Shown here: positions 4,142-26,750 of the stretch, piece after piece
Numbering within the stretch: position 1 is the stretch's first letter
Layout of the letters: every line of letters begins with the position of its first letter
Origin: a virus
Lineage: Duplodnaviria; Heunggongvirae; Uroviricota; Caudoviricetes
Virus record (IMG/VR): IMGVR_UViG_2529293065_000012
Length of the DNA stretch: 26,750 nucleotides
Reading direction: 5' to 3' (one strand)
Notes under the pieces: model-generated
Seen by the model: only the letters and a program-made list of their open reading frames with translations
What the model was told of the DNA's origin: nothing
Databases searched by the model: none
Translations under genes and position numbers: made by a program

Positions 4142-4232
4142 GAAACCAGAACATGCACACACAAAAAAACCGCTTGCCATGCCGCAATCAGTCAGGTTAC
4201 ATTTCCGCTGCACCTCACAAAACGGGTGTCGG

Positions 4233-4258
4233 GTTTCGCAGCCTGCTGACTACACAAG
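4233..4258 (+). repeat. Upstream target-site module (GTTTCGCAGC ... CTACACAAG) complementary to the candidate antisense RNA
   Basis: TTCGCAG at 4235-4241 and CTACACAAG at 4250-4258. Both motifs recur at 4411-4453, and both are complementary to sequence inside 4364-4385. Confidence 0.5.
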
Positions 4259-4325
4259 CGCACAACCGCGCCAGCGGTTTTTTTGTGCGTACTGTATTGC
4301 CACGTTTTTTTCGCGTCAGAATTAT

Positions 4326-4401
4326 GGCGGGGCGTACGGGGCCGACTTCGGTCGGGCCGGGTTCTTGTGTAGCCGGTACTGCGAACCTCGTACGTCTCGC
4401 C
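4326..4401 (+). ncRNA. Candidate c4/CI-type antisense RNA (three-way junction fold, about 76 nt)
   Basis: 13-bp closing stem 4326-4338 / 4389-4401 with two G-U pairs that work only on the plus-strand transcript. Hairpin with a UUCG tetraloop at 4342-4355. Second hairpin 4360-4387 carries CUUGUGUAG (4364-4372) and CUGCGAA (4379-4385), complementary to the flanking repeats. No convincing ORF across the region. Confidence 0.45.
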
Positions 4402-4408
4402 ACCCACA

Positions 4409-4456
4409 GTTTCGCAGCTCTGGATGGTGAGTTTTCACAACTTACTACACAAGGGG
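4409..4456 (+). repeat. Downstream target-site module overlapping the ribosome-binding site of the ORF at 4464
   Basis: TTCGCAG at 4411-4417 and CTACACAAG at 4445-4453. AAGGGG Shine-Dalgarno at 4451-4456 sits 7 nt before ATG 4464. Confidence 0.5.
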
Positions 4457-4463
4457 CCACACC

Positions 4464-4655
4464 ATGGCAAACCGCAAACCACACCGCGCTATCGCGGAGC
4501 GTCGTCACATCCAGACTGAAATCAACCGCAGACTTTCCCGCGCATCACGCGTCGCGCAAATCATGCACATCAATATGCTGCATGAGCGCAGCCACGCACT
4601 ATCAAACATTTATTCCGCCTCTGTTTTCAGCTATCTGGCGGATGATCTGCACTAG
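4464..4655 (+). CDS. Small basic protein (63 aa) of unknown function, at the position icd occupies in a c4-type module
   Basis: ORF track entry. Shine-Dalgarno AAGGGG upstream. The start region is overlapped by the target repeat. Confidence 0.45.
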   Translation: MANRKPHRAIAERRHIQTEINRRLSRASRVAQIMHINMLHERSHALSNIYSASVFSYLADDLH

Positions 4656-4766
4656 CTTCAACAGCTCATCCAGCAGCAAAACAAACTCCATTAATTCCTG
4701 TTCCGGGCCTTTCCTGCACCTTGCGGCGGGAGGCCTTCGCACATCTGTAACAAGAGGATTGCCGCA

Positions 4767-5132
4767 ATGATTCTCGCCAACGACTTTCTTGAATACCTGC
4801 TCAACACAGAACGTGATCTTGCCGCTCGCGTGCGTGATCGTTATGACATGTACCTGAAATCCCTGCCTGTACCGCAGCTCGCTGACGGAAAGATTGTTAT
4901 TGATGGTCGCTACATGATTGACAGCCACGAGGGAAATTACAGGCTTTACCGCATTGAAGGTGGCACCCCGTCCGTTATTGGCATTTACCAGCGCCCATCC
5001 TCTGCAATCGTCGATGTGATTGCCGACAGCATCCGCATCACACATCGCCATGCCGACACAGAAGACACCGTGCTGGAAATTCAGCGGCTGGCTACAGTCT
5101 GCCGCGACACCCTGAATGGCATGTCGAAGTAA
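4767..5132 (+). CDS. Hypothetical protein (121 aa) immediately upstream of gene A
   Basis: Good ribosome-binding site AAGAGGA about 7 nt before the ATG. Stop lies 6 bp before the gene A start. Confidence 0.6.
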   Translation: MILANDFLEYLLNTERDLAARVRDRYDMYLKSLPVPQLADGKIVIDGRYMIDSHEGNYRLYRIEGGTPSVIGIYQRPSSAIVDVIADSIRITHRHADTEDTVLEIQRLATVCRDTLNGMSK

Positions 5133-5138
5133 ATCACT

Positions 5139-7946
5139 ATGACGGCAGAGTACATCAGGGACTGGCAACAACCGCGCCACGCAGTGGGGCGTGAAGGAAC
5201 GGGGATCCCCGCTCCTGAATCCGCGCTTTCCTCCTGGCTGGATGCCTACCGGGTAGAGAACGAGCGCTGCCAGGAAATGGCTGATGCGGCGTTCTCCGCA
5301 ACGCCGCTGGGCAACCTGATTAATAAAAGCCTGGACGCACAGGAAAAACAGGACAAAACCATCACACTGGCAGGAGACGCCAGAAAACAGGCACGCGGCG
5401 CGGTGGATGAAGCCATGGCTTCGCTGCGCCTGCTGCCGTCCTATCTGCGCGATCCGCTTATTCGCCCCCTCTCCTTCCTGCGCAAAAAACAGGAAGCCGA
5501 TCGTCAGAAAGGCAAAAAGAGCTGGCAGGCTGAACGCTACGCGCGCGGAAACCTGCGCAAAATATTCGAACGTCTGGAGCGCACCGATCACCGCTGGCTG
5601 ACACAGGGTTATCGCTCCCTTGCCGGACGCGAACGCCTGGATGATTTGCTTTACCTGCCGCAGCTCAACCAGCACCAGATACAGACGCTGGCCACCATGA
5701 CGGCGGCGATGTTCAGCAGCACCTTCGAAAAACTCTGCGATGGCTTTGGCGCGACCGATGGCGAACTGACCATGGATGTAACGCTGAAGGCGTATCAGAT
5801 GCTGGCCCGCATGGGGTTACACCTGCACGCCATGCCGCCACATTACGAAGCTCTGAACAAGAGCGATCCGGATACGGAACTGTTACCGGGCGCAATCCTT
5901 CGCCTGACCTGTGCGGAATGGTGGAAACGCAAACTGTGGCTGTTACGTTGCGAGTGGCGGGAAGAACAACTCCGCGCCGCCTGTCTGGTTTCCAGAAAAA
6001 CATCGCCCTATCTGAGCCAGGACGCGTTAAGCGAGTTTCGCGCACAGCGCGAGAAAACACGCGATTTCCTGAAAAGTTTCATGCTGGAAAACGAAGACGG
6101 GTTCACGATTGATCTCGAGACAGTGTATTACGCGGGAGTAAGTAACCCGGTTCACCGTAAGGCAGAAATGATGGCCACCATGAAGGGGCTGGAACTTCTG
6201 GCCGAAGCCCGTGGCGACAAAGCGGTGTTTCTGACCATCACCTGCCCGTCAAAATACCACGCCACAACAGAGAACGGTCATCCGAATCCCAAATGGAACG
6301 GGGCCACCATGCGCGACTCCAGCGATTACCTGGTTAACACGTTTTTTGCGGCGGTCCGCAAGAAACTGAACCGCGACGGCCTGCGCTGGTATGGCATCCG
6401 CACGGTGGAGCCTCACCATGACGGCACCGTGCACTGGCATATGATGGTCTTTGCTCATCCGGAAGAAATCGACACCATTGTGTCCCACACCCGCGATATT
6501 GCCATTCAGGAAGATCGTCACGAGCTGGGTGATGATATTACCCCACGCTTTAAGGCGGAGTACGTCGACGGCTCAAAAGGCACGCCAACCAGCTACATCG
6601 CCACCTACATCGGAAAGAACCTGGACAGCCGCGCCGTAGATGGCATCGACCCGAAAACGGGCAAGCCACGCGTTGACCACGAAACCGGAAAATCAATGGC
6701 CGAGAGCGTGGAACGCGCCATCGGCTGGGCGCGCCTTCACCGTGTCCGCCAGTTCCAGTTCTTTGGTATCCCCTCCCGTCAGGTGTGGCGTGAACTCCGC
6801 CGCCTTGCCAGCCAGATGGCACGCAACCCGGAAGGCCCGCAACGGCTGAAGGATGACGCAATGGATGCGGTACTCGCTGCCGCTGATGCCGGATGTTTTG
6901 CCACCTACATAGAGAAACAGGGCGGCGTACTTGTTCCACGCCAAGACTACCTGATTCGCACCGCCTACGACCTCGCAGATGAGCTGAACGATTACGGCGA
7001 ACAGAGCGTACAGATTTACGGGATCTGGTCGCCGCTCATCGGGGAGTCTTCCCGCGTATGCACGCATCCGGATAACTGGAAGCTGGTAAGACGCAAACCG
7101 GAAGCGGAAGACAGCTCCCACGAAAATGGTTTTGACCTTCAGGGCGGCCCTGCCGCCCCTTGGACTCGTGGCAATAACTGTCCCCGTGTACAGGAAACGG
7201 ACAACAACGGGACAGAACAGCCGGAAGAACGGCCAGCACCGTGGCCGCAGCTTCCTGACGGCGTTGACGTGAATGAATGGATGCGCTCACTGAAACGGCA
7301 CGAACGCCGGGCGCTGATGCGTTCGCTGCGTGACAAACAGGCAAAAAACAGCAGTGATGAAATGCAGAACTGGACACAGAGCCGCAAACAGCCACAGCCT
7401 TTGCCTGATAACCACGAGTTACTCGCTAAAGAATGGCGGGAGTCTGCTGAATCTCTCGGCCTGCATATCGGTGAACAGCAGATGCAGCACCTGTTACGGG
7501 GCGGCAGTCTGTACGTTGACGGCAGCATCATTGCACCGCAGGGATTTGAAATTGTACGCAAACCGGATACCCGCCCGGACAGCCGAATCACGCAGCTCTG
7601 GCAACGCCTGAGTCGTAATCACGGCGTAAGCAGCACGGAGATCCGCCATAACCCGGTCGCCAGCTATCTGGAACAACTAGAGGCATCAGACCCTGAAGCC
7701 GCCGCACGCCTGGCATCCACACTTCAGCAAGACCAGAACACCATGAAAACACCAGTTACCGTACTTTCTGACATGCTGCGCGCCATCCGCGACGCAGAGC
7801 ACGCACAGAGAATCAGTGAAACCACTGAACGCGCCCGCCGCAAAGCAGACCTGCTGCGGGGTGGCCTGAGCAGTGGAAACAAAAAACAGACAAAAACGGG
7901 ATTCACAAATCCCGTAAATGAGCAAAAAACGCGCCGCGATATATGA
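5139..7946 (+). CDS. A: Rolling-circle replication initiator endonuclease (P2 gpA family), with a long C-terminal extension
   Basis: 935 aa. HUH-type motifs (TITCPSKYHATT ... HWHMMVF) and the catalytic tyrosine region (SYIATYIGKN) match P2 A. The roughly 170 C-terminal residues are low-complexity and charged. Confidence 0.9.
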   Translation: MTAEYIRDWQQPRHAVGREGTGIPAPESALSSWLDAYRVENERCQEMADAAFSATPLGNLINKSLDAQEKQDKTITLAGDARKQARGAVDEAMASLRLLPSYLRDPLIRPLSFLRKKQEADRQKGKKSWQAERYARGNLRKIFERLERTDHRWLTQGYRSLAGRERLDDLLYLPQLNQHQIQTLATMTAAMFSSTFEKLCDGFGATDGELTMDVTLKAYQMLARMGLHLHAMPPHYEALNKSDPDTELLPGAILRLTCAEWWKRKLWLLRCEWREEQLRAACLVSRKTSPYLSQDALSEFRAQREKTRDFLKSFMLENEDGFTIDLETVYYAGVSNPVHRKAEMMATMKGLELLAEARGDKAVFLTITCPSKYHATTENGHPNPKWNGATMRDSSDYLVNTFFAAVRKKLNRDGLRWYGIRTVEPHHDGTVHWHMMVFAHPEEIDTIVSHTRDIAIQEDRHELGDDITPRFKAEYVDGSKGTPTSYIATYIGKNLDSRAVDGIDPKTGKPRVDHETGKSMAESVERAIGWARLHRVRQFQFFGIPSRQVWRELRRLASQMARNPEGPQRLKDDAMDAVLAAADAGCFATYIEKQGGVLVPRQDYLIRTAYDLADELNDYGEQSVQIYGIWSPLIGESSRVCTHPDNWKLVRRKPEAEDSSHENGFDLQGGPAAPWTRGNNCPRVQETDNNGTEQPEERPAPWPQLPDGVDVNEWMRSLKRHERRALMRSLRDKQAKNSSDEMQNWTQSRKQPQPLPDNHELLAKEWRESAESLGLHIGEQQMQHLLRGGSLYVDGSIIAPQGFEIVRKPDTRPDSRITQLWQRLSRNHGVSSTEIRHNPVASYLEQLEASDPEAAARLASTLQQDQNTMKTPVTVLSDMLRAIRDAEHAQRISETTERARRKADLLRGGLSSGNKKQTKTGFTNPVNEQKTRRDI

Positions 7947-8022: not shown

Positions 8023-8982
8023 ATGAAAATTTGTATCGACGACGGCTCCACCAACATCAAGCTGGCATGGACTGAGAACGGCGAATGCCGCAACGCCATC
8101 AGCCCGAACAGCTTCAAGTCGGAATGGTCTGCGCCGTTCGGTGTCACGCAGCCCGCGAACTACATGCTTGATGGCGTGCGCTATGGTTTTGATCCGGTCA
8201 GCGATCGCTTTGTCCAGACGACCGACACGCAATACCAGTACAGCGATGTGAATGTCATTGCCATTCATCACGCGCTGGTCAAATCAGGCATCACGCCACA
8301 GGAAGTGGATGTGGTTGTCACCCTGCCACTGAGCGAGTATTTCGACACAAACGCACAGCCGGATATGACCAACATCAACCGCAAAAAAGCGAACGTCATG
8401 CGCCCGGTGGAGTACCAGAACGGTGAGGCATTCACTATCCGTAACGTGCGGGTTATGCCTGAATCCATTCCGGCTGGCTTTAAGGCACTGGCTAACATGA
8501 GTCCGTTTGAATCCCTGCTGATTGTGGATTTAGGCGGAACCACGCTGGATGTGGCAAAGGTTCAGGGGCAACTGGCAGGTATCAGCCAGGTGTTTTGCGA
8601 TCCACACGTAGGCGTTTCTCTGATGGCCGATGCCGTACTGTCGGTGATGGCCACTAACGGTATGCGCACCAGTCACCACATCGCCAATACCATTATCGAA
8701 CATCGCCATGATGAAGCCTGGCTGCGCCAGCACATCCACAATGACGCGCATTACGCCAGCCTGATGGCGGTTATTCGTGAAAAGGAAGAAACACTGAAAC
8801 AACGCGTGATCCGCGCGCTGGCGGTTTTTTCGGGTTACGGGCGGGTGATGGTTGTCGGTGGCGGGGCGGAGATTGTGGCACCCGCTATCCGCGAAGCCTG
8901 CGGAGTTAATGCGACTTTCATCGCGGACGGGGTGCCACAGTTTGCTCTGGTTAATGGGCTGTACGCAATGGACAAGGAGTAA
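8023..8982 (+). CDS. parM: ParM/StbA-like actin-family partition ATPase
   Basis: 319 aa. IDDGSTNIKLAW, ISPNSFK, YSDVNVIAIHHAL, VMPESIPAG, LIVDLGGTTLD, GVSL and VVGGGAE align with my recollection of plasmid R1 ParM. AAGGA ribosome-binding site. Confidence 0.85.
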   Translation: MKICIDDGSTNIKLAWTENGECRNAISPNSFKSEWSAPFGVTQPANYMLDGVRYGFDPVSDRFVQTTDTQYQYSDVNVIAIHHALVKSGITPQEVDVVVTLPLSEYFDTNAQPDMTNINRKKANVMRPVEYQNGEAFTIRNVRVMPESIPAGFKALANMSPFESLLIVDLGGTTLDVAKVQGQLAGISQVFCDPHVGVSLMADAVLSVMATNGMRTSHHIANTIIEHRHDEAWLRQHIHNDAHYASLMAVIREKEETLKQRVIRALAVFSGYGRVMVVGGGAEIVAPAIREACGVNATFIADGVPQFALVNGLYAMDKE

Positions 8983-8986
8983 ACCA

Positions 8987-9301
8987 ATGACGACATCAAC
9001 CAGACGGATAAGTTTCTATCTGAAGCCAGACGCCGTCAAGAGTGAACAAGAGGCGTGCAATTACCTCGATAGCCTGCCAGCCTCCGAACGCAGCCGCGCG
9101 CAACGCGCGGCCTTTCTGGCCGGACTGGCACTCATAAAACGCAACCCAGCATTTGCCTACTGGATGGCCGAATGGCCAGAGGATAACCTCCCCTTCAATA
9201 CCATTAGCACCAAGGAAACATACCAAGATAATCCGCCTAGCGGAATTGAATGCAATTTTTATAAAATAAAAAAGAATATTCAGACCTTATTCCCTGAATA
9301 A
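8987..9301 (+). CDS. parR: ParR-like centromere-binding adaptor
   Basis: 104 aa from the ATG at 8987 (in frame within ORF 8852..9301), AAGGAG 8 nt upstream. ISFYLKPD...LDSLPASERSRAQRAAFLAGLAL parallels the R1 ParR N-terminal ribbon-helix-helix region. Lies immediately downstream of the parM-like gene. Confidence 0.7.
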   Translation: MTTSTRRISFYLKPDAVKSEQEACNYLDSLPASERSRAQRAAFLAGLALIKRNPAFAYWMAEWPEDNLPFNTISTKETYQDNPPSGIECNFYKIKKNIQTLFPE

Positions 9302-22833: not shown

Positions 22834-25140
22834 ATGAGTACCACAACACGAAAATTTAAAACCATTATCACTGATACTGGTGCCAAAAAATTAGCTCAGG
22901 CAGCCGCGCCAGGTGGTAATCCTGTCCGCCTGACTCACATGGCCGTGGGCGACGGTGGCGGCACGTTGCCCACACCAGACAGTAAGCAGACCCGTCTGGT
23001 GCATGAGGTGTGGCGACATACTGTTAATCGCGTCATCCTGGACGCAACACATCAGAACCGCATTATTGCGGAGCTGGTTATTCCTCCTGAAACGGGCGGA
23101 TTCTGGATCCGGGAAATTGGTGTATTTGATGAGCACGGCGATTTAATCGCGGTGGGCAATACTGCCGAAAGTTACAAACCAACCGTTGCCGAAGGGTCCG
23201 GACGTGCACAAACATTTCGCACCATTCTGACCGTATCCAGCACTGCCACCGTGGCGCTTACCGTGGATAACACCATGGTGATGGCCACAGTGGATTACGT
23301 GGATGACAAACTGAAAGAGCATGAACAGTCACGACGTCACCCGGATGCCTCGCTGACCGCAAAAGGCTTTGTTCAACTCAGTAGCGCCACTAACAGCGAT
23401 TCTGAAACGCTGGCTGCAACGCCGAAAGCGGTTAAGGCCGCGTATGACCTGGCTAACGGAAAATATACCGCTCAGGACGCCACGACGGCACGAAAAGGGA
23501 TAGTCCAGCTCAGCAGTGCAACCAACAGCACGTCTGAAACGCTGGCTGCGACACCAAAAGCGGTTAAGGCGGTAATGGATGAAACGAACAAGAAAGCGCC
23601 CTTAAATAGTCCTGCACTGACCGGAACGCCAACAACGCCAACTGCGCCAAAAGGTACTAATAATACTCAGATCGCAAGTACGGCTTATGTGATGGCCGCG
23701 ATTGCCGCCCTTGTAGACTCGTCGCCTGACGCACTGAATACGCTGAACGAGTTAGCGGCGGCGCTGGGCAACGACCCGAATTTTGCGACCACCATGACTA
23801 ACGCGCTTGCGGGTAAGCAACCGAAAGATGCCACCCTGACGGCGCTGGCCGGGCTTGCTACTGCGGCAGACAGGTTTCCGTATTTTACGGGGAATGATGT
23901 CGCCAGCCTGGCAACCCTGACAAAAGTCGGGCGGGATATTCTTGCGAAATCGACCGTTGCTGCCGTTATCGAATACCTCGGTTTGCAGGAAACGGTAAAT
24001 AAGGCTTCTGGCGCATTACAGAAAAACCAGAACGGCGCAGATATTCCCGATAAAAAACTATTCCTGCGTAATATCGGCACAACAAATTCAACAACCATGT
24101 CTTTTAGTGGTGGTGCTGGATGGTTCAAACTGGCAACTGTAACAATGCCACAAGCCAGTTCCGTGGTTTACATAAGCCTGATTGGTGGCGCAGGGTATAA
24201 CGTTGGCTCCTCGCATCAAGCAGGCATCTCTGAGCTGGTTCTGCGTGCCGGAAATGGGAATCCAAAAGGTATTACTGGTGCATTATGGCGACGGACCTCG
24301 GTTGGATTTACTCATTTTGCATGGGTGAATACATCCGGTGATACCTATGACATTTATGTAGAAATAGGTAATTACGCCACAGGTGTTAATATTCAGTGGG
24401 ATTATACCAGTAACGCCAGCGTAACGATTCATACATCACCAACTTATACAGCGAATAAACCAACAGGCCTGACAGATGGAACTGTATATGTAATTTACAG
24501 TTCGCACATTAAACCGACTGCTGCTGAGGTTGGGGCGTTGTCATTATCTGGCGGTCAATTGAATGGTGCACTGGGCATCGGAACATCCAGTGTTCTTGGC
24601 GGTAACTCGATTGTTTTGGGGGATAATGATACTGGTTTCAAACAGAACGGCGATGGCCTTCTTGATGTTTATGCTAATAGTCAGCATGTATTCCGTTTCC
24701 AGAATGGCGTGGCTATTGCTTTAAAAAACATTCAGGCCGGAGATGGTAAAAAACTCTCGCTATCAAGCTCCAACAACTCCACAAAGAATGCAAGGTTTAA
24801 TTTATGGGGTAATTCATCCCGCCCCGTAGTTGCAGAACTTGGTGATGATTCAGGTTGGCATTTTTATAGTCAAAGAAATACAGATAATTCAGTATTGTTC
24901 TCCGTTAACGGTCAGATAAACCCCAACAACTGGAGTAACTTTGATTCTCGTTATGTGAGAGATGTCCGACTTGGTACACGTGTTGTTCAGACTATGCAAA
25001 AAGGCGTGATGTATGAGAAATCAGGTCATGCAATTACGGGGCTTGGCATTATTGGCGCTGTTGATGGCGATGATCCGGCTGTATTCAGACCAATACAAAA
25101 ATACATCAATGGCACATGGTATAACGTCGCACAGGTATAA
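22834..25140 (+). CDS. H: Tail fibre protein (P2 gpH family); constant N-terminal part joined to a switchable C-terminal part
   Basis: 768 aa. Conserved N-terminus. Internal duplicated LSSATNS-SETLAATPKAVKA motif. A recombination-site-like sequence at 23966-23993 marks the constant/variable junction. Confidence 0.9.
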   Translation: MSTTTRKFKTIITDTGAKKLAQAAAPGGNPVRLTHMAVGDGGGTLPTPDSKQTRLVHEVWRHTVNRVILDATHQNRIIAELVIPPETGGFWIREIGVFDEHGDLIAVGNTAESYKPTVAEGSGRAQTFRTILTVSSTATVALTVDNTMVMATVDYVDDKLKEHEQSRRHPDASLTAKGFVQLSSATNSDSETLAATPKAVKAAYDLANGKYTAQDATTARKGIVQLSSATNSTSETLAATPKAVKAVMDETNKKAPLNSPALTGTPTTPTAPKGTNNTQIASTAYVMAAIAALVDSSPDALNTLNELAAALGNDPNFATTMTNALAGKQPKDATLTALAGLATAADRFPYFTGNDVASLATLTKVGRDILAKSTVAAVIEYLGLQETVNKASGALQKNQNGADIPDKKLFLRNIGTTNSTTMSFSGGAGWFKLATVTMPQASSVVYISLIGGAGYNVGSSHQAGISELVLRAGNGNPKGITGALWRRTSVGFTHFAWVNTSGDTYDIYVEIGNYATGVNIQWDYTSNASVTIHTSPTYTANKPTGLTDGTVYVIYSSHIKPTAAEVGALSLSGGQLNGALGIGTSSVLGGNSIVLGDNDTGFKQNGDGLLDVYANSQHVFRFQNGVAIALKNIQAGDGKKLSLSSSNNSTKNARFNLWGNSSRPVVAELGDDSGWHFYSQRNTDNSVLFSVNGQINPNNWSNFDSRYVRDVRLGTRVVQTMQKGVMYEKSGHAITGLGIIGAVDGDDPAVFRPIQKYINGTWYNVAQV
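23966..23993. other. gix/hix-like crossover site for a Gin/Hin/Cin-family serine invertase, inside gene H
   Basis: TTATCGAATACCTCGGTTTGCAGGAAAC closely matches phage Mu gixL as I recall it (TTATCCAAAACCTCGGTTTACAGGAAAC). Confidence 0.6.
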
Positions 25141-25143
25141 TTT

Positions 25144-25671
25144 ATGCAGCATTTAAAAAATATTACTGCAGGTAATCCCAAAACTATCGAACAGTATCAA
25201 CTTACAAAAGAATTTGATGTTATCTGGTTATGGTCCGAAGACGGAAAAAACTGGTATGAGGAAGTGAAAAACTTTCAGCCAGACACAATAAAGATTGTTT
25301 ACGATGCAAATAATATTATTGTCGCCATCACCAAAGATGCCTCCACGCTTAACCCTGAAGGTTATAGCGTCGTTGAGGTTCCAGATATTACAGCCAACCG
25401 CCGCGCTGATGATTCCGGTAAGTGGATGTTTAGGGACGGAGCTGTGGTTAAACGGATTTATACGGCAGACGAGCAACAACAACAGGCCGAATCACAAAAG
25501 GCCGCGTTGCTTTCTGAAGCTGAAAGCGTTATTCAGCCACTGGAACGCGCTGTCAGGCTGAATATGGCGACGGATGAGGAGCGTACACGACTGGAGTCAT
25601 GGGAACGCTACAGCGTTCTGGTCAACCGTGTGGATACAGCAAAGCCCGAATGGCCACAAAAGCCTGAATAA
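25144..25671 (+). CDS. Tail fibre assembly chaperone (gpG/Tfa family), expressed in the current orientation
   Basis: 175 aa. Immediately follows H. N-terminal 40 aa nearly identical to the inverted copy. Confidence 0.85.
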
Positions 25672-25676
25672 AAATT

Positions 25677-25696
25677 AAGGCCCGCTATCGGGCCTT
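25677..25696. terminator. Stem-loop (AAGGCCCG / CGGGCCTT) between convergent tail-fibre assembly genes
   Basis: 8-bp stem with a 4-nt loop, flanked by A/T-rich runs on both sides. Confidence 0.45.
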
Positions 25697-25699
25697 GTC

Positions 25700-26233
25700 T
25701 CATTCAGGTTGTTCGGGAAATATTACTGGCAGGCTGGAGGTGTCTGTAGATTCGACTTTCTGCGCATAGAGCATCCACTCGGTTAATTTTTGTTTATTCT
25801 CGTCGGAAATGATGCCCAGCCGTAGCTGTGAGTCCCATAGCTGTGTTTTATCCCTGACGAGCTGTAGCAGGCTTTGCTTTTCATTTTCCGCTTGTTGCCT
25901 CTGCTCTTCCTCGGTATAAGTTCGCTTTATCACTACGCCATCTTTGAACATCCAGTTGCCGGAAATATCAGCGCGTCGGTTTGCCGTAATATTGGGTAAC
26001 TCAACCACACTCATTCCCTCTGGATTAATCAGGGATACATCTTTCTCAATACAGCAAATAACACCCTCCTGGTTATATGCCACTTTTAACGTGTCAGGCT
26101 GGAAATTTTTCTGTTCCTCATACCAGTTCTTACCTTCTTCCGACCATAACCAGACAACATCAAATTCTTTTGTAAGTTGATACTGTTCGATAGTTTTGGG
26201 ATTTCCTGCTTTAATATTTTTTAAATGCTGCAT
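25700..26233 (-). CDS. Alternative tail fibre assembly chaperone (inverted orientation)
   Basis: ATG at 26231-26233 inside ORF 25700..26242. N-terminus [30 protein letters not shown] is near-identical to the plus-strand tfa. Confidence 0.8.
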   Translation of the reverse strand: MQHLKNIKAGNPKTIEQYQLTKEFDVVWLWSEEGKNWYEEQKNFQPDTLKVAYNQEGVICCIEKDVSLINPEGMSVVELPNITANRRADISGNWMFKDGVVIKRTYTEEEQRQQAENEKQSLLQLVRDKTQLWDSQLRLGIISDENKQKLTEWMLYAQKVESTDTSSLPVIFPEQPE

Positions 26234-26234
26234 A

Positions 26235-26750
26235 TTAAGCACGTCCTACATTGTACCAATGACCATTAATATATTTCTGAACAGGAGCGTAGACAGGCCA
26301 TTCTCTCGAATCATCAAAGTTGCCACCTGTCAGAACGTATCCGGCTGGAACCGTTCCGCCATCACCACCCCAGACAATCCCACTCTGGTTAGCACCCATG
26401 CGAACGTCACGAACATAGCGTGAGTCAAAATTACCATAATTGCCGGGAATAATTTGCGAGCCGCAAAGCCAATTCCCGTTATTATCCATGTACGCCTGAC
26501 CATCGGTGCCATTGTCTGTCCTTGAGTTATTAATCATGTAGATGCCAAATTCCCTATTCCCCAGTCCACCAATCATAAATTTGCGGTCAGCATGGTCCTG
26601 ACGTAGCAATGCCTGGGCGCTATCAGTTTTAACTATATTTCTCCCAAAGATAGCGTTGTTATCGCGCATCTGAATCCACATACCATTACTGCTGTTAATA
26701 GCAAAACGGTTTGCAAATATATCCCCTGTAACATCAAGACCATGCCCCAT
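26235..26750 (-). CDS. Alternative tail-fibre C-terminal (variable) segment, 5'-truncated by the window edge; probably expressed only after inversion
   Basis: ORF runs off the window. C-terminal NFDSRYVRDVRMG ... PVQKYINGHWYNV matches the H C-terminus. Confidence 0.75.
   Translation of the reverse strand: MGHGLDVTGDIFANRFAINSSNGMWIQMRDNNAIFGRNIVKTDSAQALLRQDHADRKFMIGGLGNREFGIYMINNSRTDNGTDGQAYMDNNGNWLCGSQIIPGNYGNFDSRYVRDVRMGANQSGIVWGGDGGTVPAGYVLTGGNFDDSREWPVYAPVQKYINGHWYNVGRA

What the first reader, a model, noticed from the sequence alone, without database searches (positions are those of the whole stretch)
4230..4470. Candidate c4/CI-type antisense RNA with two flanking target sites, the downstream one overlapping a ribosome-binding site
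Seen in sequence: 4326-4338 (GGCGGGGCGTACG) pairs with 4389-4401 (CGTACGTCTCGCC) as a 13-bp stem. Its two non-Watson-Crick positions are G-U on a plus-strand transcript but C-A on a minus-strand one, so the fold favours a plus-strand RNA. The stem encloses a hairpin with a UUCG tetraloop (4342-4355) and a second hairpin (4360-4387). That second hairpin carries CUUGUGUAG (4364-4372) and CUGCGAA (4379-4385), exact complements of CTACACAAG and TTCGCAG. The two target motifs occur together, in the order needed for antiparallel pairing, upstream at 4235-4258 and downstream at 4411-4453. The downstream copy overlaps the AAGGGG Shine-Dalgarno of a 63-codon ORF (ATG 4464) that precedes a 121-aa ORF and gene A. 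Established knowledge: this layout matches the P1/P7 c4 antisense RNA (a'/b' pairing with a1b1 and a2b2 to block icd-ant translation) and the P4 CI RNA. Inference: a P2-type phage with a protein C/Cox switch would here carry an extra RNA-based control ahead of its replication gene, which is not part of the canonical P2 description.
Basis: partly seen in the sequence, partly recalled or inferred. Interest (0 to 1): 0.8.

Follow-up and report, generated by a model that had tools for sequence, protein, structure and literature searches.

The report
P4-type antisense RNA gating a phage antirepressor
This P2-type prophage carries a genuine small antisense RNA of the well-known C4/CI family, with the same leader RNA and anti-repressor gene as satellite phage P4, so the finding is real but belongs to a known kind of phage immunity switch.

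Summary
Window 4320-4407 (+) is a full-length member of Rfam C4 antisense RNA (83.2 bits, cutoff 45).

Across 17 homologs the family fold is 100% paired, with 13 compensatory pairs. The recognition sequences a' (4364-4372) and b' (4379-4385) co-vary with both flanking target pairs: each RNA ranks its own targets first in 16/16 annotated loci and in 30/31 specificity types from IMG/VR.

The gene whose Shine-Dalgarno is covered is a homolog of P4 epsilon, the protein that inactivates the P2 C repressor. In this window a nonsense change at 4653 cuts it from 76 to 63 codons. P4 shows the same order: isrK-type leader, CI RNA, epsilon, replication gene. Canonical P2 and 186 lack the module, while about 21% of complete E. 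coli genomes carry it, with no ncRNA feature in the records listed.

Verdict: a new member of a known kind. All functional steps are inferred from sequence and from P1, P4 and Gifsy-1 experiments.

The parts
4174..4203 (+). Promoter-like site (-35 TTGCCA 4174-4179, -10 TACATT 4198-4203) placed to start transcription at about 4210; counterpart of P4 P_LE
   Evidence: Consensus scan. A -10-like hexamer sits at the same distance from the isrK-type start in all homologs despite different sequences. Activity not tested.
4210..4284 (+). isrK-type leader RNA. Hairpin 1 is 4210-4229. Hairpin 2 is 4230-4245 and presents b1 (TTCGCAG 4235-4241) in its loop. The single-stranded linker carries a1 (CTACACAAG 4250-4258). 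An intrinsic terminator follows (stem 4264-4279, U7 to 4284).
   Evidence: Rfam RF01394, 61.9 bits (cutoff 50), full length. Fold is 86% paired with 7 compensatory pairs in 16 homologs. Terminator found.
4320..4407 (+). C4/CI-type antisense RNA. Outer stem 4325-4341 with 4386-4402. Hairpin 1 is 4342-4355 (UUCG loop). Hairpin 2 is 4356-4360 with 4373-4377, holding a' (CUUGUGUAG 4364-4372) in a 12-nt loop. b' (CUGCGAA 4379-4385) lies in the 8-nt joint. The 3' tail ACC starts at 4402.
   Evidence: Rfam RF01695, 83.2 bits (cutoff 45), model 1-87/87. 100% paired with 13 compensatory pairs, 0/500 shuffles. MFE -47.7 kcal/mol, z -4.46 on plus strand versus -33.6, z -1.9 on minus.
4411..4417 (+). b2 target site (TTCGCAG), 4 nt after the C4 element
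   Evidence: Exact complement of b'. Fixed position 3-7 nt after C4 and co-variation with b' in 16 loci.
4445..4456 (+). a2 target site (CTACACAAG 4445-4453) overlapping the Shine-Dalgarno AAGGGG (4451-4456) of the 4464 ORF
   Evidence: Duplexfold gives -17.7 kcal/mol for a paired block running into the SD guanines.
4464..4655 (+). epsilon-like 'derepression protein' ORF, 63 aa here. The ancestral stop is at 4692-4694 (76 aa). TAG at 4653-4655 is a GAG-to-TAG change.
   Evidence: Pfam PF25738, 30.7 bits (cutoff 27). BLASTP to P4 epsilon: 29% over 66 aa, E 3e-9. P4 epsilon scores 170 bits on the same model. Nonsense change shown. Excess of synonymous changes in this frame.
4153..4770 (+). 205-codon ORF that reads through the leader, the C4 RNA and the epsilon-like gene in another frame. 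Its stop overlaps the ATG of orf121 (ATGA). It is the counterpart of P4 eta ('Ash', Pfam PF10554).
   Evidence: PF10554 scores 25.0 bits here (cutoff 26), 27.1 in P88 and 82 in the P4 eta ORF. The frame is open in 71/79 epsilon-type loci and 15/18 specificity types, against 3/79 and 0/79 for the other frames. Only 0.7-7.5% of synonymous recodings keep it open.
4157..4177 (+). Segment upstream of the internal promoter that is complementary to the terminator 3' arm plus U-tract (4270-4290). Candidate antiterminator, present only in transcripts arriving from the early operon.
   Evidence: 21-nt inverted repeat, 90% complementary. A 15-nt perfect core is kept in all five P88-type loci with otherwise divergent upstream flanks, and is absent from lambdoid and P4 versions. 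The MFE of 4150-4295 uses this stem instead of the terminator (-55 kcal/mol, z -4.4). Hypothesis only.
4767..5132 (+). orf121, unknown function, next gene of the operon
   Evidence: phrog_3237, unknown function. No similarity to P4 orf151.
5139..7946 (+). Gene A, P2-type replication endonuclease; last gene plausibly affected by polarity
   Evidence: Pfam PF05840 Phage_GPA, 434.7 bits.

Best explanation
The region is an RNA-gated anti-repressor cassette of the P4 / P1-immI type, embedded in the early operon of a P88-like P2-family prophage.

Proposed mechanism:
1. An internal promoter (about 4174-4203) makes a leader RNA of the isrK type (4210-4284). This leader carries decoy sites b1 and a1 and a leaky intrinsic terminator.
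2. Read-through transcripts contain the C4/CI-type RNA (4320-4407). By analogy with P1 c4 and P4 CI, RNase P excises it as a stable RNA of about 80 nt.
3. Its loop a' and single-stranded joint b' pair with a2 and b2 just downstream. This covers the Shine-Dalgarno of the first gene and blocks translation of a P4-epsilon-type protein, which is expected to inactivate the phage's P2-type C repressor.
4. Untranslated mRNA is then probably prone to Rho-dependent termination. That would also lower orf121 and gene A expression from this promoter, as in P4.
5. The short terminated leader can compete for a'/b' and so relieve the block, as shown for IsrK in Gifsy-1.
6. Transcripts from the upstream early promoter probably escape the gate through translation of the read-through ORF 4153-4770 and a candidate antiterminator (4157-4177).

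Shown here: family membership, fold, strand, target complementarity and its co-variation, and homology of the controlled gene. Inferred: processing, translational block, polarity, decoy action and bypass.
For: - C4 model 83.2 bits and isrK model 61.9 bits, both full length.
- Family fold 100% paired in 17 sequences with 13 compensatory pairs, 0/500 shuffles; slid controls reach only 28-49%.
- Plus strand -47.7 kcal/mol, z -4.46; minus strand z -1.9.
- Targets sit at fixed offsets, and a'/b' co-vary with a1b1 and a2b2. Cognate pairing is 29.9 bases against 14.6 +/- 3.0 non-cognate, with own targets first in 16/16 loci.
- In 119 IMG/VR loci there are 31 a'/b' types: cognate 30.0 against 17.8, own targets first in 30/31.
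- Five P88-type backbones have five different specificities. Cognate duplex energies are -24.5 to -29.7 kcal/mol, non-cognate -8.8 to -18.2.
- At imperfect target positions G-U outnumbers A-C 60 to 22, as expected for plus-strand RNA pairing.
- a2 abuts or overlaps the SD in every locus.
- The controlled ORF passes the Pfam 'Derepression' threshold and aligns with P4 epsilon at E 3e-9.
- The window's C repressor is 37% identical to P2 C.
- P4 has the same order of the same two RNA families followed by epsilon and its replication gene.
- In Gifsy-1, an IsrK promoter deletion abolishes a processed RNA of about 80 nt at the C4 position. IsrK in trans raises translation of the downstream anti-repressor 140-fold, and mutations at IsrK G28/G31 are matched by C162/C159 (PMC4825925). 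By my mapping these positions are b1 and b'.
- The sequence downstream of the SD is C-rich and G-poor (C/G 1.5-1.7).
Against: - No expression, processing or regulatory data exist for this phage group. Everything functional is by analogy.
- The epsilon-like gene is truncated by a nonsense codon in this window, so the output arm may be impaired here.
- In the predicted MFE of the unprocessed 4210-4475 transcript, a'/b' pair in cis with a1/b1 and the SD is left open. The net sign of regulation therefore depends on processing and RNA ratios.
- No LexA box or other obvious induction signal lies near the module, so the trigger is unknown.
- Binding of the epsilon-like protein to this phage's C repressor is untested.
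Confidence: 0.85

Rival explanations
1. The main output is premature transcription termination, as in P4 immunity, rather than translational control as such. On this reading the RNA chiefly keeps orf121 and the replication gene A silent on transcripts from the internal promoter, and the epsilon-like gene is a bystander whose translation merely couples to Rho. This is not exclusive of the best explanation.
For: P4 has the same module order ending in its replication gene. The stretch 4464-4766 is C-rich and G-poor, as rut sites are. The read-through ORF ends in ATGA on the orf121 start and is conserved, as expected if translation protects the transcript. The P4 mechanism itself (Forti et al. 1999, kil/eta and t_imm) is recalled from my own knowledge.
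Against: No Rho-dependent terminator can be identified from sequence. In lytic growth gene A must be expressed from the early promoter anyway. The epsilon frame shows purifying selection, so that gene is not a mere spacer.
Confidence: 0.35
2. The module is a decaying relic in this particular prophage. The RNA genes are intact but the anti-repressor is non-functional, so the RNA now serves only as cross-immunity against incoming phages or satellites of the same a'/b' type, or does nothing.
For: GAG-to-TAG at 4653 removes 13 C-terminal residues that are conserved in relatives. Among the 16 loci of the same specificity type, which include the window itself, only the window has 63 aa, and 3 carry a 58-aa deletion variant. 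The IHE3034 prophage also has pseudogene fragments near gpD.
Against: The segment aligned to P4 epsilon (residues 1-62) is retained. The RNAs, both target pairs and the read-through ORF are all intact. An amber codon may be partly suppressed in some hosts.
Confidence: 0.2
3. The three 9-mers and three 7-mers are binding sites (iterons or operators) for a DNA-binding protein. On double-stranded DNA they are three copies of the same site, so their concerted change reflects protein specificity rather than RNA pairing.
For: Concerted change of all copies is by itself compatible with a DNA-site model. A MarR-type wHTH gene lies just upstream.
Against: The inverted copy always sits in the loop and joint of an RNA whose stems show 13 compensatory pairs. 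Imperfect positions favour G-U over A-C 60:22, which is strand-specific. The a and b types reassort independently (24 a by 15 b) while no adjacent protein gene co-varies. Homologous sites in P1, P4 and Gifsy-1 are experimentally RNA-RNA (PMC4825925; P1 and P4 from my own knowledge).
Confidence: 0.03
4. Conservation is due to a protein-coding gene ('Ash family protein', ORF 4153-4770). On this reading the RNA-like features are incidental.
For: PGAP labels the stretch 'ash family protein' in some genomes. Pfam PF10554 matches. The frame is kept open in 71/79 loci.
Against: The amino-acid sequence changes freely with the a/b specificity. In the overlap with epsilon this frame shows 3 synonymous against 30 non-synonymous differences, compared with 11/24 for the epsilon frame. 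Covariance-model scores and compensatory pairs cannot come from coding constraint. What appears selected is an open frame, not a protein sequence.
Confidence: 0.05

Closest known systems
Satellite phage P4 immunity region (P_LE leader with seqA, CI RNA with seqB, seqC, kil/eta, epsilon, alpha)
   Same: The same two Rfam families occur in the same order (isrK-type leader 60.8 bits, C4-type CI RNA 74.9 bits). The downstream target lies at the SD of the first ORF. A long ORF reads through both RNA genes (PF10554). An epsilon homolog follows, and a replication gene closes the operon.
   Different: The host element is a complete P2-type phage with int, C, cox, gene A and structural genes, not a satellite; sid, delta, psu and alpha are not among its annotated genes. 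Epsilon is the first gene after the RNA, with no kil. The replication gene is gpA rather than a primase-helicase. The read-through ORF is in a different frame from the first gene. A P88-group-specific segment is complementary to the terminator. The a'/b' sequences differ.
P1/P7 immI: c4 antisense RNA with a1b1 and a2b2 controlling icd-ant
   Same: Same Rfam family. Two recognition elements pair with one target set upstream and one downstream, the downstream set at a ribosome-binding site. The output is an anti-repressor. Differences in specificity define heteroimmunity (P1/P7 facts from my own knowledge; Citron and Schuster 1990 is cited in PMC12197685).
   Different: There is no Icd-like ORF and no Ant, KilA or Bro-type anti-repressor; the first gene is epsilon-like. 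The upstream targets lie in a terminated isrK-type RNA, and the c4-a1b1 model scores only 19.9 bits against a cutoff of 46.7.
Gifsy-1 IsrK / STnc1160 ('orf45') / AnrP locus of Salmonella
   Same: An isrK-family leader with terminator is followed by a processed RNA of about 80 nt and then an anti-repressor gene. The short leader acts in trans through the site I map to b1-b' (PMC4825925). Lambdoid relatives of that locus align with window 4211-4447 at about 70% identity.
   Different: The host is a lambdoid phage and the anti-repressor is of the Rha/Ant type. The published model treats the C4 region as a small ORF (orf45) coupled to anrP and stresses activation by IsrK. The downstream consequence there is the AntQ anti-terminator.
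N15-type phage-plasmid anti-immunity locus (small processed RNA controlling icd/ant genes)
   Same: Two protelomerase-bearing plasmids carry isrK plus C4 hits upstream of Icd-like and Bro-N genes. Control by a small processed RNA is recalled from my own knowledge (Ravin et al. 1999).
   Different: Different downstream genes, different replicon type and different a'/b' sequences.

Membership tests
Rfam RF01695 C4 antisense RNA (P1/P7 c4, P4 CI) | Covariance-model score above the curated gathering threshold over the full model | tested here: met
   83.2 bits against 45, model 1-87/87, E 3e-15.
Rfam RF01695 C4 antisense RNA (P1/P7 c4, P4 CI) | Long closing stem enclosing two hairpins, supported by compensatory changes | tested here: met
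   27 pairs, 100% paired in 17 sequences, 13 pairs with changes on both sides, 0/500 shuffles; slid controls 28-49%.
Rfam RF01695 C4 antisense RNA (P1/P7 c4, P4 CI) | Two exposed recognition elements complementary to one site pair upstream and one downstream on the same transcript, the downstream pair at a ribosome-binding site | tested here: met
   Exact 9-nt and 7-nt complements on both sides. Co-variation in 16/16 loci and 30/31 types. a2 overlaps the SD.
Rfam RF01695 C4 antisense RNA (P1/P7 c4, P4 CI) | Excised from a longer transcript by RNase P to a stable RNA of about 77 nt | not testable with these tools
   Only indirect support: the closing stem is followed by invariant A-C-C, which is tRNA-like, and a promoter-like site lies 110 nt upstream.
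Rfam RF01394 isrK | Covariance-model score above threshold; two hairpins plus an intrinsic terminator | tested here: met
   61.9 bits against 50, full length. Terminator stem 4264-4279 with U7. 86% paired, 7 compensatory pairs.
Rfam RF01394 isrK | Hfq binding and trans-activation of the downstream anti-repressor | not testable with these tools
   Known only for Gifsy-1 (PMC4825925).
P4-type immunity operon | Leader with seqA, CI RNA, seqC at the first RBS, and a read-through eta-type ORF | tested here: met
   Same two RNA families in P4. PF10554 matches the read-through ORF at 25.0 bits (cutoff 26; 27.1 in P88). Frame open in 71/79 loci.
P4-type immunity operon | epsilon (helper derepression protein) encoded downstream | tested here: met
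   PF25738 at 30.7 bits (cutoff 27); BLASTP to P4 epsilon E 3e-9.
P4-type immunity operon | Rho-dependent terminator (t_imm) within the first translated gene | not testable with these tools
   Only a C>G bias of 1.5-1.7 over 4464-4766.
P4-like satellite | Satellite gene set (sid, delta, psu, alpha primase) and absence of structural genes | tested here: not met
   The element has P2-type int, C, cox, gpA, portal, terminase, capsid and tail genes. No sid, delta, psu or alpha appears among its annotated genes.
P1 immI (c4-icd-ant) | Icd-like ORF and Ant-type anti-repressor downstream of c4 | tested here: not met
   The first ORF is epsilon-like. orf121 has no Pfam hit and only an unknown-function PHROG. 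Icd-like and Bro-N genes occur in the N15-like plasmids instead.
Rfam RF03163 c4-a1b1 | Score above the gathering threshold | tested here: not met
   19.9 bits against 46.7 at 4197-4249. The isrK model describes this leader better.

The most novel reading that the evidence does not exclude
P88-type members of the P2 family, the family that supplies P4's helpers, own the same RNA-gated epsilon cassette as satellite P4. P4's weapon for derepressing its helper would then be a copy of (or the donor to) the helper lineage's own induction module.

In these phages the cassette has diversified into dozens of reassorting a'/b' RNA-immunity types. It has also acquired a bypass for early-operon transcripts: a read-through ORF plus an upstream antiterminator arm.
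Probability: 0.4. Interest if true: 0.6.

Novelty: new member of a known kind. Interest (0 to 1): 0.4.

Why it matters
This is a second, RNA-based layer on top of the protein C/Cox switch, in a prophage group found in roughly a fifth of complete E. coli genomes, including O157:H7 and ST131. None of the genome records I listed marks an RNA there; they label the region hypothetical, 'derepression protein' or 'ash family protein'.

It offers a concrete route to induction for P2-type prophages. P88 was obtained by mitomycin C induction (PMC5285337), whereas canonical P2 is, to my knowledge, non-inducible.

It predicts heteroimmunity classes set by two short RNA sequences. It also ties the helper-derepression gene of P4 satellites to a homologous cassette in helper-type phages.

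Finally, it shows that Pfam 'Ash' (PF10554), used as the epsilon marker in P4-satellite surveys (PMC8628076), actually tracks the ORF lying across the RNA genes.

Tried and rejected
66% paired and no covariation; replaced by the family hairpin 2.
- **Minus-strand RNA:** -33.6 kcal/mol, z -1.9, against -47.7, z -4.46 for plus.
- **DNA iteron reading:** disfavoured by the G-U over A-C excess and by placement inside a covarying RNA fold.
- **SOS link:** LexA-box pattern hits are at chance level and none lies near the module.
- **Second promoter-like site 4297-4325:** its -10 lies in the conserved 5' leader of C4 and its -35 is not conserved in P88 or Shae, so it is not relied on.
- **orf121 as a homolog of P4 orf151:** no similarity.
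- **Module in canonical P2 or 186:** absent.
- **c4-a1b1 model:** sub-threshold.
- **Literature:** searches found no paper describing this module in P2-type phages. The library is limited to open-access texts.
- **Antiterminator arm 4157-4177:** covariation could not be tested, because all P88-type loci share the same terminator sequence.
Full report
**Observation.**
- 4326-4338 pairs with 4389-4401 over 13 bp, with two G-T positions.
- 4342-4355 is a UUCG hairpin.
- CTTGTGTAG (4364) and CTGCGAA (4379) are exact complements of CTACACAAG (only at 4250 and 4445 in the window) and TTCGCAG (4235 and 4411).
- The downstream 9-mer overlaps AAGGGG, 7 nt before ATG 4464.
- Only 2 of 26350 9-mers in the window have an exact reverse-complement copy on both sides within 150 nt.

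**Family assignment.** A scan of the whole window against Rfam gives exactly two hits above threshold.
- C4 antisense RNA (RF01695) at 4320-4407 on the plus strand: 83.2 bits against a cutoff of 45, covering the whole model.
- isrK (RF01394) at 4210-4284: 61.9 bits against 50.

The c4-a1b1 model scores only 19.9 bits.

**Fold.** I aligned 17 C4-type sequences from P88-type phages, lambdoid Stx phages, ST64B, N15-like plasmids and P4.
- The family consensus structure is paired in 100% of cells, with 13 of 27 pairs showing changes on both sides.
- No shuffle (0/500) reaches this, and slid controls give only 28-49% pairing.
- The closing stem is 17 bp (4325-4341 with 4386-4402).
- The conserved hairpin 2 is GCCGG 4356-4360 with CCGGU 4373-4377. 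This places a' in a 12-nt loop and b' in an 8-nt single-stranded joint.
- The plus strand folds to exactly this structure (-47.7 kcal/mol, z -4.46). The minus strand does not (-33.6, z -1.9).
- The isrK-type leader is 86% paired with 7 compensatory pairs. It presents b1 in the loop of hairpin 2 and a1 in the linker.

**Targets.** In 16 loci that carry both RNAs, the sites sit at fixed offsets.
- b1 is 25 nt into the leader and a1 about 40 nt in.
- b2 is 3-7 nt after C4, and a2 is 34-38 nt after C4, directly at the Shine-Dalgarno.

The sequences of a' and b' differ between loci, and all four targets change with them.
- Cognate pairing averages 29.9 bases against 14.6 +/- 3.0 for non-cognate combinations. 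Each RNA ranks its own targets first in 16 of 16 cases.
- Five near-identical P88-type backbones have five different specificities. Cognate duplex energies are -24.5 to -29.7 kcal/mol and non-cognate -8.8 to -18.2.
- A scan of IMG/VR with the hairpin-1 21-mer returned 119 usable loci with 31 a'/b' combinations (24 a loops, 15 b joints, reassorted). Cognate pairing was 30.0 against 17.8, and own targets ranked first in 30 of 31.

On double-stranded DNA the three copies are one site in two orientations, so I tested a protein-site rival. At imperfect positions G-U outnumbers A-C 60 to 22 (binomial p about 3e-5; the cells are not phylogenetically independent). This favours plus-strand RNA pairing.

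**Context.** The window is 100% identical over the tested stretch to a prophage of E. coli IHE3034 next to pdxB. It belongs to the P88 / Xuanwuvirus group of Peduoviridae.
- Gene order: integrase, a C repressor 37% identical to P2 C, Cox, several small ORFs, the RNA module, the 63-aa ORF, orf121, gpA, ParM-type partition genes and P2-type structural genes.
- The early regions of P2 and 186 have no C4 or isrK hit.
- A version of the module covering at least 80% of the query is present in 1139 of 5426 complete E. coli genomes. Listed records label it 'hypothetical protein', 'derepression protein' or 'ash family protein', never as an RNA.
- One Stx phage record (F004) does annotate isrK and C4 in tandem.

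**The controlled gene.** The ORF at 4464 passes the Pfam 'Derepression' threshold (30.7 bits against 27).
- P4 epsilon, the protein that derepresses the P2 helper, scores 170 bits on the same model. It aligns with the window ORF at 29% identity over 66 residues, E 3e-9.
- Relatives encode 76 aa. The window has GAG-to-TAG at 4653, the only 63-aa case among the 16 loci of this specificity type.
- Differences between the window and phage Shae_phiSM are enriched for synonymous changes in this frame: 11/24, against 3/30 and 4/29 in the other frames.

**Comparison with P4.** P4 itself scores on both RNA models: CI RNA 74.9 bits, and the P_LE leader with seqA 60.8 bits. Its order is leader, CI, first ORF with the a2-type site at its SD, epsilon, two small ORFs, then the replication gene alpha. 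The window has leader, C4, epsilon-like, orf121, then gpA.

P4 also has a long ORF (eta) reading through both RNA genes.
- The window has an equivalent 205-codon ORF (4153-4770) whose stop overlaps the orf121 start.
- Pfam PF10554 'Ash' matches both: 82 bits for P4 eta, 27.1 for P88 and 25.0 for the window, against a cutoff of 26.
- The frame is open in 71 of 79 epsilon-type loci and 15 of 18 specificity types, against 3/79 and 0/79 for the other frames.
- Only 0.7-7.5% of synonymous recodings of the epsilon gene would leave it open.

What seems selected is translation through the region, not a protein sequence.

**Published mechanism in relatives.**
- In Gifsy-1, IsrK is followed by a processed RNA of about 80 nt (STnc1160) that depends on the isrK promoter, and then by the anti-repressor AnrP.
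- Short IsrK in trans raises anrP translation 140-fold.
- IsrK mutations G28A and G31A, and their partners C162U and C159U, define a helix (PMC4825925). By my mapping onto the Rfam models this helix is the b1-b' pairing.
- The authors themselves liken IsrK to P4 seqA and STnc1160 to CI.
- The P1 c4 and P4 CI mechanisms (RNase P processing, block of icd-ant translation, Rho-dependent termination at t_imm relieved by kil/eta translation) are from my own knowledge of the literature.

**Proposed mechanism and its status.**
- Shown here: the RNA family, fold, strand, complementarity, three-way co-variation, SD overlap, and homology of the gene to an anti-repressor of P2-type C proteins.
- Inferred: transcription from about 4174-4203 (a consensus match with positional conservation of a -10), RNase P excision, translational block of the epsilon-like gene, polarity onto orf121 and gene A (C/G 1.5-1.7 over 4464-4766), decoy action of the short leader, and bypass by early-operon transcripts.

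For the bypass there is one extra lead. 4157-4177 is complementary to the terminator 3' arm plus U-tract (21 nt, 90%). A perfect 15-nt core is kept in all five P88-type loci although their upstream flanks otherwise diverge, and it is absent from lambdoid and P4 versions. The predicted fold of 4150-4295 uses this stem instead of the terminator (-55 kcal/mol, z -4.4). This segment is absent from transcripts started at the internal promoter.

The predicted fold of the unprocessed 4210-4475 transcript pairs a1/b1 with a'/b' in cis. This resembles 'structure A' of the Gifsy-1 paper.

**Open points.** No LexA box lies near the module, so the trigger is unknown, although P88 was recovered after mitomycin C treatment (PMC5285337). 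I found no paper describing this module in P2-type phages. The searched library holds only open-access texts.

**Verdict.** The finding is real and correctly interpreted. It is a new, unannotated member of a well-characterised kind (C4/CI antisense immunity), closest to the P4 cassette. Its interest lies in the host element and in the link it draws between satellite P4 and helper-type phages.

Noticed in passing
window 4653-4655: An in-frame TAG (GAG in four relatives) shortens the epsilon-like ORF from 76 to 63 aa. This is the only such case among the 16 loci of this RNA specificity type; three others carry a 58-aa deletion variant.
   Followed up: yes
window 4153-4770; L018 (P4) 8168-8812 minus strand: Pfam PF10554 'Ash' matches the ORF translated across the isrK-type and C4/CI RNA genes, not P4 epsilon, which is PF25738. 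A P4-satellite survey (PMC8628076) lists PF10554 as its epsilon marker, and PGAP labels this RNA region 'ash family protein'.
   Followed up: yes
window 4157-4177 and 4270-4290: A 21-nt inverted repeat joins a segment upstream of the internal promoter to the terminator 3' arm and U-tract. It is specific to P88-type phages and is a candidate antiterminator for early-operon transcripts.
   Followed up: partly
window 4695-4766: The spacer between the epsilon-like stop and the orf121 start is almost invariant in five phages, although the epsilon-like ORF itself diverges strongly in Shae_phiSM. It lies inside the read-through ORF and contains G+C-rich self-complementary stretches.
   Followed up: no
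window 4297-4325: A second promoter-like site (TTGCCA-17-AATTAT) lies immediately before the C4 stem. Its -10 is the conserved 5' leader of the RNA, and its -35 is not conserved in P88 or Shae.
   Followed up: partly
L007 1141-2292, L008 1141-2292, L011 1046-2203, L003 2941-3804: In lambdoid phages the 'antirepressor' CDS is annotated as one long ORF running across the isrK and C4 genes into a Rha-domain gene. This is either eta-like read-through frames or over-extended gene calls. There the module sits between cII-like genes and replication gene O.
   Followed up: partly
L009 (phage phi191) 2523-2606: A second structured RNA hit, Rfam sRNA-Xcc1 (79.6 bits, cutoff 53), lies just upstream of an 'anti-repressor protein' gene and downstream of the isrK-C4-Rha unit.
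   Followed up: no
window 8023-9298: ParM-type segregation ATPase and a partition/stability protein gene lie directly after gene A in a P2-type prophage. This suggests a plasmid-like maintenance option.
   Followed up: no
window about 24017-26484: Two oppositely oriented tail-fibre assembly genes, a partial tail-protein pseudogene and a recombinase (invertase-type) gene resemble an invertible host-range segment.
   Followed up: no
IMG/VR loci L022-L141: The a loops and b joints reassort: the same a' occurs with three different b', and the window's b' CUGCGAA is shared with lambdoid Stx phages (L010, L012). This implies modular exchange of RNA specificities across phage families.
   Followed up: partly
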